Shown: piece after piece, positions 50,604 through 51,324 of the stretch
How the letters are laid out: each line of letters begins with the position of its first letter
Numbering within the stretch: the first letter of the stretch is position 1
Origin: Eledone cirrhosa
Taxonomy: Eukaryota
Direction of reading: 5' to 3'
Assembly (NCBI GenBank): GCA_964016885.1
Contig: OZ024748.1
Span: forward strand, 22,320,001 to 22,384,000
Length of the DNA stretch: 64,000 bases
Notes under the pieces: generated by a model
Seen by the model: only the letters and a program-made list of their open reading frames with translations
The model's database searches: none
Told to the model about the DNA's origin: nothing
Translations under genes and position numbers: made by a program

Positions 50604-51324
50604 TAAAAAAACATGAGAAGAAAGAAGAATACTGCGTAGTTGCACATGGGTTACATATGATAAAAATAGTCCTTCGTCAGTGATTTTCCAACCATCATTG
50701 GTATTTCATCGCATTAAAAATCAGATACCTCAGGTTGGTGCGAGCAATAACTAAAAAAGGTTATTGGGACCAGAATTCGCGTAAGGCGAGAGGGACAAGT
50801 AAACAACATAGAAGGATAAAAGCAAACCGAAGATAGGAAAATAAACAAGCAACATGATTGTCCGGTCAGCATAAGCTGGGTGGATTTCATGAGCGAGAGC
50901 GGTACAGACCGTGTTGATGTGTGTGAGATGTGAGCAAGAAGAGACCCACACAAGCCAAACGGGAGGAAGTGAGAAGGGGAGAAACAGAGGGTGAGTGAGT
51001 GGAAGTGTGAGGAAGAGGTCAGTCGAGAGAAAGTGTAACTGACAGAGTGGGCGAAAGAAAGTGAGAGAAACAGAGAGAGCGGGGAAGCAGTAAGAGAGAA
51101 ACAGACAAACGCAGCCGAGGTAAATATATATAAAAAACATGAGAAGAAAGAAGAATACTGCGTGGTTTGCACATGGGTTACATATGATAAAAATAGTCCT
51201 TCGTCAGTGATTTTCCAACCATCATTGGTATTTCATCGCATTAAAAATCAGATACCTCAGGTTGGTGCGAGCAATAACTAAAAAAAGTTATTGGGACCAG
51301 AATTCGCGTAAGGCGAGGGGGACA
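50604..51324 (-). mobile_element. Family K non-coding element with ~194-bp direct terminal repeats 527 bp apart, each with a permuted HHR-like motif (50669-50770, 51196-51297)
   Basis: 50604-50797 is nearly identical to 51131-51324. Flanked by (TA)n. See top finding. Confidence 0.8.

What the first reader, a model, noticed from the sequence alone, without database searches (positions are those of the whole stretch)
50669..50770. Scrambled, pseudoknotted hammerhead-like ribozyme fitting none of types I/II/III, with covariation support
Seen, minus strand 5'->3': GUCC(a)-[CAAUAAC..GUUAUUG hairpin]-C-UCGCA(b)-CCAACC(c)-UGA-GGUAU(d)-C^-UGAUUUU(e)-UAA-UGCGA(b')-U-GAA-AUACC(d')-AAUGAU-GGUUGG(c')-AAAAUCA(e')-CUGACGA-A-GGAC(a'). 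All HHR core parts are present: d/d' is stem III with GAAA and an AUC triplet, and e/e' is stem I next to CUGANGA. Their order is UH, GAAA, CUGANGA. Established: types I/II/III are circular permutations of CUGANGA, GAAA, UH, so this reversed cyclic order forces pseudoknots. The 102-nt homologue at 17774-17875 shows compensatory changes. Stem III GGUAU/AUACC becomes GGCAU/AUGCC. Stem I UGAUUUU/AAAAUCA becomes UGGCCCU/AGGGUCA. The hairpin CAAUAAC/GUUAUUG becomes CAACGAC/GCCGUUG. The core varies only at tolerated positions (N7 C to U, H17 C to A). Inference: stem II is replaced by a junction of a/a', the hairpin and b/b', and the 3-nt UAA linker ties the ends of arms I and II, which lie side by side in the active HHR fold. 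Helices b and c have mismatches in the 17.8-kb copy, and the fold may need a dimer. I do not know a described HHR with this topology, and standard descriptors would miss it.
Basis: partly seen in the sequence, partly recalled or inferred. Interest (0 to 1): 0.92.

Follow-up and report, generated by a model that had tools for sequence, protein, structure and literature searches.

The report
Rearranged hammerhead ribozyme of Naiad retrotransposons
A self-cutting RNA motif with its parts in a scrambled order, a layout published so far only from environmental sequence data and one weak bacterial candidate, occurs here in thousands of copies of an animal jumping element and appears to be the ribozyme reported missing from Naiad retrotransposons.

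Summary
50669-50770(-) carries a full hammerhead core in the order cleavage site, GAAA, CUGANGA; predicted cut 50724/50723. Three things appear new. (1) Stem II is opened at the core into a four-way junction; the published descriptor matches 0 of 52 copies. (2) It is genome-encoded in an animal: 15,742 matches to the 3' half (control 9), in non-coding tandem units inserted into (TA)n. Across ten families, 20 of 35 pairs covary, in every helix (0/500 shuffles). (3) The same architecture follows the ORF of autonomous Naiad Penelope-like elements: 7 of 45 metagenomic Naiad tails (0/45 reverse strand, 1/450 shuffles) and, read by eye, published Naiad consensus sequences from cephalopods, cnidarians and a crustacean. 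Nematode Naiads show type CSG. Craig 2021 reported that Naiads lack canonical hammerheads. 5' ends of truncated copies are about three times denser downstream of the predicted cut, which suggests cleavage in vivo. Cleavage is untested, no intact partner element was found in this genome, and 38 of 45 Naiad tails lack the motif. Verdict: new variant of a known kind.

The parts
50669..50770 (-). Permuted hammerhead ribozyme; order a, hairpin, b, c, stem III, C17, stem I, 3-nt linker, b', U11.1, GAAA, stem III', c', stem I', CUGACGA, A10.1, a'
50723..50724 (-). Predicted scissile bond after the AUC triplet (C17 = 50724)
   Evidence: by analogy with hammerhead numbering, not tested
50674..50680 (-). 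CUGACGA core box (C3-A9)
   Evidence: core positions invariant or nearly so in 52 copies
50704..50707 (-). GAAA core box (G12-A15.1)
   Evidence: invariant in 52 copies
50739..50770 (-). 5' splint: strand a, hairpin and strand b, which with a', b' and the 10.1-11.1 pair form the junction that replaces stem II
   Evidence: covariation; junction score above 200 of 200 shuffles of the upstream region
50688..50738 (-). Helix c (50738-50733 with 50693-50688), joining the far ends of b and stem I; equivalent of the stem I-II helix of type SGC
   Evidence: 5 of 6 pairs change on both sides
51196..51297 (-). Second ribozyme copy in the upstream tandem unit (C17 = 51251), 1 mismatch from the finding
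50798..51324 (-). One full 527-nt non-coding repeat unit (ribozyme, short 3' segment, pyrimidine-rich body)
   Evidence: no Naiad-like ORF
50594..50797 (-). 3' partial unit ending at the fixed 3' end and running into (TA)n
   Evidence: 24 of 26 loci end at this point
51324..51421 (.). (TA)49 microsatellite at the 5' junction of the insertion
17774..17875 (-). Copy from a second family (tandem unit about 700-770 nt), with private mutations in b and c
49658..49743 (-). 5'-truncated copy of a third family, beginning at GAAA next to (TA)n

Best explanation
This is a hammerhead ribozyme in non-circularly permuted (SGC-order) form whose stem II is opened at the core into a four-way junction. It is the 3'-end ribozyme of Naiad Penelope-like retroelements, carried here by young non-coding tandem derivatives. 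SHOWN: the core, six covarying helices, the 10.1-11.1 pair, the repeat anatomy, and the same architecture behind Naiad ORFs elsewhere. INFERRED fold: stems III and I flank the core as usual; helix b takes the place of stem II under the G12-A9/A13-G8 pairs and is held beside stem I by the 3-nt linker and helix c; helix a and the hairpin clamp the two ends created by opening the chain after A9/10.1. INFERRED biology: a multimeric transcript is cut after AUC once per 527-nt unit, and monomers may be circularised as in retrozymes. A Penelope-type RT/GIY-YIG protein acting in trans primes at nicked (TA)n on the U/UA-rich stretch about 115 nt downstream of the cut. Linear cut monomers would then give copies ending at or before the cut; circles or uncut multimers would give longer and tandem copies.
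For: Core invariant or nearly so in 52 hand-picked full-length copies while helices vary. 52 copies: 93.6% of cells paired vs 85.3+-0.4 shuffled, 191 two-sided cells vs 52 (0/500 each); slid controls 27-49%. One copy per family, 10 rows: 95.1% paired, 20 of 35 pairs covary (0/500), every helix has at least one two-sided change, and 10.1-11.1 is A-U, G-U or U-A. An older family has G10.1-C11.1 and different c, III and I sequences (by eye). 15,742 + 676 + 249 pattern matches against controls of 9, 3, 0. Fixed 3' end in 24 of 26 loci, variable 5' ends, inversions, tandem arrays, (TA)n flanks. 7 of 45 metagenomic Naiad tails carry the S-G-C core on the sense strand with 0-1 bp of direct stem II; reverse strand 0/45, shuffles 1/450. 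6 of those 7 parse automatically as a/hairpin/b junctions above all 200 shuffles. L292 has an unbroken 914-aa Naiad ORF ending about 140 nt before the cut. Published Naiad consensus 3' ends read by eye: 9 clear and 2 partial SGC-junction forms, 6 CSG, 8 unresolved of 25 snippets. 5'-end density about 28-33 per nt downstream of the cut vs about 9-10 upstream. Type SGC cleaves in vitro (PMC10085705).
Against: Cleavage is untested. In the 52-copy set the count of covarying pairs is not significant (18 vs 15.7, 37/500), nor is the count of extra pair types in either set (479/500, 260/500); helix a has no two-sided change there and only one in the 10-family set. The rows are related and hand-picked. 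10.1-11.1 is not the usual G-C in young families. Nested folding gives z = -1.39 for the 102-mer (the opposite strand folds better, z = -2.51), and in 250- and 731-nt contexts helices c and III drop to 0.01-0.05 because the upstream flank competes. No Naiad ORF lies upstream of any of 155 motif loci; no motif was found behind 30 + 10 Naiad relics; all 51 scored Naiad matches in this genome are broken or partial. So the mobilising enzyme is not identified. 38 of 45 Naiad tails lack the motif, and the motif-bearing ones are not clustered on the RT tree (141/500 shuffles). The 5'-end step rests partly on by-eye classes and different anchors.
Confidence: 0.8

Rival explanations
1. The ribozyme and fold are as described and derive from a Naiad, but the young copies in this genome are now mobilised by another Penelope-like clade (Neptune, Hydra, Penelope), not by a Naiad. 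This differs from the best explanation only in the enzyme.
For: Families are 97-99% identical between copies, yet every Naiad ORF found here is a relic; Craig 2021 also says cephalopod Naiads survive only as remnants. Other Penelope-type ORF pieces occur in the fetched loci (assigned by eye).
Against: The protein search used a stricter first filter and may miss an intact Naiad. Own-genome relics fall in the same 100/100 clade as 6 of 7 motif-bearing Naiads. (TA)n targeting is listed for all five cephalopod Naiads, though also for Hydra elements.
Confidence: 0.3
2. The fold is real and hammerhead-derived but no longer catalytic in these families; it is kept as a recognition structure for the retroelement protein.
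For: AU-rich stems, non-G-C 10.1-11.1 pair, most copies run through the site uncut, competing upstream pairing. In the 2026 retrozyme preprint only 1 of 9 predicted Xenopus elements cleaved.
Against: All catalytic positions are kept and only tolerated ones vary (N7; H17 mostly C or A); the 5'-end density steps down at the predicted bond.
Confidence: 0.09
3. The active ribozyme forms between two tandem units or two molecules in a canonical (type I-III) or dimeric arrangement, and the scrambled monomer is an illusion of the repeat phase.
For: Copies are often tandem, and minimal Penelope hammerheads cleave as dimers (Lunse 2017, seen only as a citation; recalled). Helix a could pair with the next unit's strand a.
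Against: A circular or tandem reading keeps the reversed cyclic order. The nearest GAAA downstream of CUGANGA is 103, 319 and 652 nt away in the three window copies. Single-copy Naiad tails close every helix within about 130 nt.
Confidence: 0.04
4. Chance pairing in an AT-rich repeat.
For: Folding energy is unremarkable; related rows inflate shuffle tests.
Against: 0 of 60 shuffled windows; the same architecture with different helix sequences in unrelated Naiads.
Confidence: 0.01

Closest known systems
Type-SGC hammerhead ribozymes (HRIMA-1 and SGC variant; Eckert et al. 2023, PMC10085705)
   Same: [quoted passage not shown]
   Different: In type SGC the strand after CUGANGA pairs directly with the strand before GAAA, and the authors assumed blocks cannot be interrupted. 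Here that partner strand (b) and the joining helix strand (c) are moved to the 5' end, with helix a and a hairpin making a four-way junction. Published SGC examples are from metatranscriptomes, none from genomes of known organisms; this one has more than 15,000 genomic copies.
Type-CSG hammerheads (same paper; two metagenomic sequences)
   Same: Same cyclic connectivity; by eye, six Naiad consensus 3' ends (five in the nematode part of the file) are CSG with a direct stem II.
   Different: The form here is a circular permutation of CSG/SGC opened between A9 (or 10.1) and stem II.
Naiad Penelope-like elements (Craig et al. 2021, PMC8557442)
   Same: (TA)n targeting, fixed 3' end, 5' truncation, inverted and partial-tandem insertions; the same ribozyme architecture lies in the 3' UTR of Naiad_Obim, Naiad_Ovul, three Acropora Naiads and Naiad_EuTe (by eye).
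   Different: The elements here are non-coding. The paper states that Naiads lack canonical hammerheads and flags only HHR_core or HHR_half_core; in the passages I saw it proposes no permuted fold.
Non-LTR retrozymes of animals (Li, Clavereau and Pollet 2026, 10.64898/2026.07.22.740005; Cervera and de la Pena 2020, listing only)
   Same: Non-coding tandem units, one hammerhead per unit, proposed to be non-autonomous derivatives of Penelope-like elements.
   Different: Defined by type I hammerheads; the pipeline uses type I descriptors, which this strand order cannot match.
Pseudoknot-containing (pistol-like) hammerhead (Zhan et al. 2024, PMC11300833)
   Same: Precedent that another helix can take the place of stem II.
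   Different: There helix II is a loop pseudoknot; no four-way junction or reversed order is described in the sections read.

Membership tests
Hammerhead ribozyme (class) | CUGANGA, GAAA and NUH core with U16.1-A15.1 | tested here: met
   (U16.1-A15.1 in 52 of 52)
Hammerhead ribozyme (class) | Stems I and III flanking the core, with covariation | tested here: met
   stem I 6 of 7 and stem III 2 of 5 pairs change on both sides; 44 of 52 copies pass the core descriptor
Hammerhead ribozyme (class) | A helix under G12-A9 (stem II), usually starting R10.1-Y11.1 | tested here: inconclusive
   10.1-11.1 pairs in 47 of 52 but includes U-A; a direct stem II is absent and helix b is the proposed substitute
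Hammerhead ribozyme (class) | Site-specific self-cleavage after H17 | not testable with these tools
   only the indirect 5'-end step
Types I/II/III | Cyclic order CUGANGA, GAAA, UH with nested three-way junction | tested here: not met
   order is UH, GAAA, CUGANGA; no Rfam ribozyme hit
Type SGC (Eckert 2023) | Block order S, G, C | tested here: met
Type SGC (Eckert 2023) | [quoted passage not shown] | tested here: met
   3-nt linker; helix c covaries at 5 of 6 pairs
Type SGC (Eckert 2023) | Stem II formed directly between the G block and the C block (published descriptor) | tested here: not met
   0 of 52 match my re-implementation, strict or relaxed; direct stem II 0-1 bp in 7 of 7 Naiad cases
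Non-autonomous Naiad/Penelope-like element | (TA)n targets, fixed 3' end, 5' truncation or inversion, partial tandem repeats | tested here: met
Non-autonomous Naiad/Penelope-like element | 3' end shared with an autonomous element of the same genome | tested here: inconclusive
   no match to relic Naiad tails; architecture and unpaired motifs shared with Naiad_Obim/Ovul by eye; no intact Naiad found
Non-LTR retrozyme | Non-coding tandem units, each with a hammerhead | tested here: met
Non-LTR retrozyme | Type I hammerhead | tested here: not met
Non-LTR retrozyme | Accumulates as monomeric circular RNA | not testable with these tools
   no RNA run was available

The most novel reading that the evidence does not exclude
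Non-circularly permuted hammerheads are the usual ribozyme of a large part of the Naiad clade across animal phyla: CSG in nematodes, and a further connectivity not foreseen by the three-block scheme (chain opened between A9 and stem II, closed by a four-way junction) in cnidarians, cephalopods and a crustacean. The second arose from the first type of layout by circular permutation in tandem pLTRs. Such ribozymes are then abundant and active in animal genomes, and Naiads without them may have swapped in twister or undescribed ribozymes.
Probability: 0.6. Interest if true: 0.88.

Novelty: new variant of a known kind. Interest (0 to 1): 0.8.

Why it matters
Non-circular RNA permutations were known from metatranscriptome and metagenome contigs plus one weak bacterial candidate. 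Finding them in more than 15,000 copies in one animal genome, and behind Naiad ORFs, gives them a host element and a likely job. It would correct the published view that Naiads spread without hammerheads and reopen the question of what the ribozyme does in Penelope-type transposition. The four-way junction breaks the assumption that CUGANGA must run straight into stem II, so current descriptors undercount hammerheads. A 102-nt transcript tests the claim directly.

Tried and rejected
Rfam: no hit at gathering score in the window or in 20 Naiad loci; the permissive scan also missed the apparent canonical minimal hammerhead near 51594, so an Rfam blank says little here. Nested folding cannot represent the structure: RNAalifold recovered only a, hairpin, c and stem III. 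A covariance model was not built (one search had a length slip and was not repeated). Search for an autonomous partner in this genome: two back-translated motif patterns gave 4 and 11 hits; protein searches gave 101 and 51 matches; those examined were relics. The motif copy near relic L206 is a separate (TA)n-flanked insertion. A relaxed core (one mismatch) rescued 0 of 22 motif-negative Naiad tails. The automatic junction parser did not beat its null for the 17.8-kb copy (27/200) or L282 (7/200), found no parse for L206, and stopped before the identity matrix. My family filter failed, so alignment rows were picked by hand: 52 rows, 51 of them drawn from the 112 candidates or the window equivalents; truncated, chimeric, indel-rich, many redundant and all old-family copies were left out. 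Earlier scan findings: none by sequence or by the specific words. Considered and rejected: canonical type I-III fold via tandem phase; chance; pistol-like pseudoknot hammerhead.

Full report
OBSERVATION. A second copy lies at 51196-51297, one mismatch away and 527 nt upstream; a divergent copy at 17774-17875; a 5'-truncated one at 49658-49743. A descriptor for the order cleavage site, GAAA, CUGANGA (stem I at least 5 bp, stem III at least 4) finds exactly three hits in the window, all on the minus strand, and none in 60 shuffled windows. Rfam has no match at gathering score and no ribozyme family among 46 permissive matches.

THE ORDER IS PUBLISHED. Eckert et al. 2023 (PMC10085705; I read parts 1-6 of 8 of the main text, supplement parts 1 and 8 of 42, and one keyword search) divide the hammerhead into blocks S, G and C and validate type SGC and type CSG. 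Type SGC has a linker of typically three nucleotides from stem I to stem II and a helix joining the two stems. [quoted passage not shown] My re-implementation matches 0 of 52 copies, strict or relaxed.

WHAT DIFFERS. Here the strand before GAAA (b') pairs with a strand at the 5' end (b), the strand after CUGANGA (a') pairs with another 5' strand (a), and a hairpin lies between a and b. In this genome's families one pair, 10.1-11.1, is kept between the core and the junction. In the Naiad cases below, b supplies position 10.1 and the junction is a perfect four-way one. Read against HRIMA-1, this is a circular permutation that moves the stem II partner and the joining-helix strand to the 5' end (inference from strand order).

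COVARIATION. The window lies in G000 (3.0 Gb). A 121-nt query gave 457 candidates, of which 40 were scored, all 99-100% identical; the 17.8-kb family gave 2,793 candidates. A pattern for the G-to-C half has 15,742 matches against 9 for the reversed control; two looser patterns add 676 (control 3) and 249 (control 0). In 52 hand-picked full-length copies, 93.6% of cells pair against 85.3+-0.4 shuffled, with 191 two-sided cells against 52 (0/500 each); slid controls give 27-49%. The number of covarying pairs (18 of 35; 37/500) and of extra pair types (479/500) was not significant, and helix a had no two-sided change. With one copy per family (10 rows), 95.1% pair and 20 of 35 pairs covary (0/500): a 1/4, hairpin 4/7, b 1/5, c 5/6, III 2/5, I 6/7, and 10.1-11.1. 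These tests do not remove relatedness. G-U variants on this strand favour the minus strand as the functional one. An older family has other c, III and I sequences, G10.1-C11.1, and no hairpin between a and b (by eye).

THE CARRIER. The motif sits in a 527-nt non-coding unit. Of 26 loci (30 less 4 overlapping), 24 end at the same 3' point in (TA)n, about 115 nt downstream of the predicted cut; 5' ends vary, some are inverted, and one array has at least five units. Other families have units of about 500-770 nt. This is the insertion pattern of Penelope-like elements as described in Craig et al. 2021 (PMC8557442; I saw 12 of 24 passages, supplement parts 1 and 19 of 59, and five keyword searches) and of retrozymes (Li et al. 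2026 preprint, parts 1-3 of 5). The genome looks cephalopod-like; that is an inference from repeat content and similarity to octopus Naiads.

THE NAIAD LINK. Craig et al. state that Naiads lack canonical hammerheads, target (TA)n, and in some cases have an HHR_core or HHR_half_core that fits no descriptor. I read by eye 25 snippets around 3' CUGANGA boxes in their 54 Naiad consensus sequences; not all hits were displayed. Nine show the full a-hairpin-b-c-III-I architecture: Naiad_Obim, Naiad_Ovul, three Acropora entries, Naiad_EuTe, one entry in the Clytia part and two in part 12 (by file order Morbakka or a neighbour). Two are partial (Beroe; an entry in part 25). Six are type CSG with a direct stem II (three Nippostrongylus entries and three assigned only by file position). 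Eight I could not resolve, and Naiad_Ppla shows no such box. The octopus entries also share the 8-nt hairpin loop and two unpaired linkers with families here. For an independent test I collected eight Naiad-type proteins and 80 metagenome loci. Of 45 with the ORF end and at least 250 nt of tail, 7 carry an S-G-C core on the sense strand; 37 have no CUGANGA and 1 has one without the fold. Reverse strands gave 0 of 45 and shuffles 1 of 450. Six of the seven parse automatically as four-way junctions scoring above all 200 shuffles; L282 scored 7/200; the finding itself 0/200; the decayed 17.8-kb copy 27/200. L292 has an unbroken 914-aa frame with N-terminal GIY-YIG, the CxC linker and RT motifs (read by eye) just upstream. 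On an RT tree of 46 rows, three relics from this genome group with 6 of the 7 (19 rows, 100/100), together with 10 motif-negative rows; the motif label itself is not clustered (141/500).

AGAINST A SIMPLE STORY. No Naiad ORF lies upstream of 155 motif loci. No motif lies behind 30 + 10 relics. All 51 scored matches to a full Naiad protein are broken or partial, under a stricter filter. Young non-coding families therefore lack an identified partner. Nested folding is weak, and in longer contexts the upstream pyrimidine-rich flank outcompetes c and stem III; such programs cannot score the pseudoknots, but the flank may attenuate cleavage.

A FOOTPRINT OF CLEAVAGE? I counted copies whose 5' end falls in windows around the predicted bond. 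Window +15 to +43: 1,073 matches, 23 of 30 checked are true truncations, about 28 per nt. Window -16 to +12: 742 matches; of the first 100 by eye, 50 end at +3 to +12, 22 at -4 to +2, 15 at -16 to -5, and 13 are full-length with indels; a script on the first 30 gave 15, 6, 5, 4. That is about 33 per nt at or downstream of the bond and 9 upstream. Window -43 to -19: 340 matches, about a quarter indels by eye, about 10 per nt. The step is about threefold (binomial p = 3e-7 by eye, 0.01 by script). It fits priming 115 nt downstream on RNAs whose 5' end is the cut site. Anchors differ between windows, junction microhomology with (TA)n blurs positions, and RT stalling at the fold is an alternative, so I rate it suggestive.

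LITERATURE. Eight full-text searches of open-licence PubMed Central and bioRxiv. 'Type SGC' with hammerhead returned only Eckert. Naiad with ribozyme returned Craig, Li 2026 and a fungal genome paper whose passages do not link the two. Hammerhead ribozyme with four-way junction, retrotransposon and stem II returned none. Passages of PMC3088659, PMC13725137, PMC10162972, sections 4 and 7 of PMC11300833 and part 1 of PMC8370743 describe no such junction. Subscription papers, Repbase reports and the preprint's supplements were not searchable. Hammerhead numbering and catalytic roles are from general knowledge.

VERDICT. A real, conserved, probably active hammerhead. It works like type SGC but fails that type's stem II criterion, so I file it as a new variant. 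Its main interest is the link to Naiad elements and the scale in animal genomes. Interest 0.8.

Noticed in passing
window 51590-51625 (+): An apparently canonical minimal type I hammerhead (CUGAUGA at 51594, 4-bp stem II, very short stem III), head to head with the finding's element. Its stem II strands have the same sequence as a'/a of the permuted motif. Rfam missed it.
   Followed up: partly
L291:3076-3135 (+): Weak type-P5 twister match (28.7 bits, gathering 37.6, E 0.047) in the tail of a Naiad that lacks a hammerhead core; L293 and L294 are near-identical elements. Suggests ribozyme swapping.
   Followed up: partly
L275 about 3450-3640; L287 about 2440-2740; L279 about 3290-3430: GC-richer, apparently structured segments in Naiad tails with no hammerhead core and no Rfam hit; candidates for undescribed self-cleaving RNAs.
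   Followed up: no
L126-L154 (centre of each locus): Older family (copies 65-85% alike) with the S-G-C core, G10.1-C11.1, and no hairpin between a and b: a simpler three-way version of the junction.
   Followed up: partly
window 50381-50593 and 51982-52313: Long self-inverted repeats (95% and 81%) beside the element; the second belongs to a family with many copies in the window. The first gives spurious miRNA matches.
   Followed up: no
window 10156, 19509, 26008 (+); 19322, 52969 (-): Further CUGANGA boxes in repeated contexts, followed by GAGGUCA-like strands; possibly pLTR hammerheads of other Penelope-like families.
   Followed up: no
window 41230-41712 (+): 161-aa frame with a CCHC knuckle and an RPD motif, like the restriction-type endonuclease end of a non-LTR retrotransposon (assignment recalled, not tested).
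   Followed up: no
window 50780-50845 (-): Pyrimidine-rich flank predicted to pair with the c'/stem I' strand; a possible attenuator of cleavage.
   Followed up: partly
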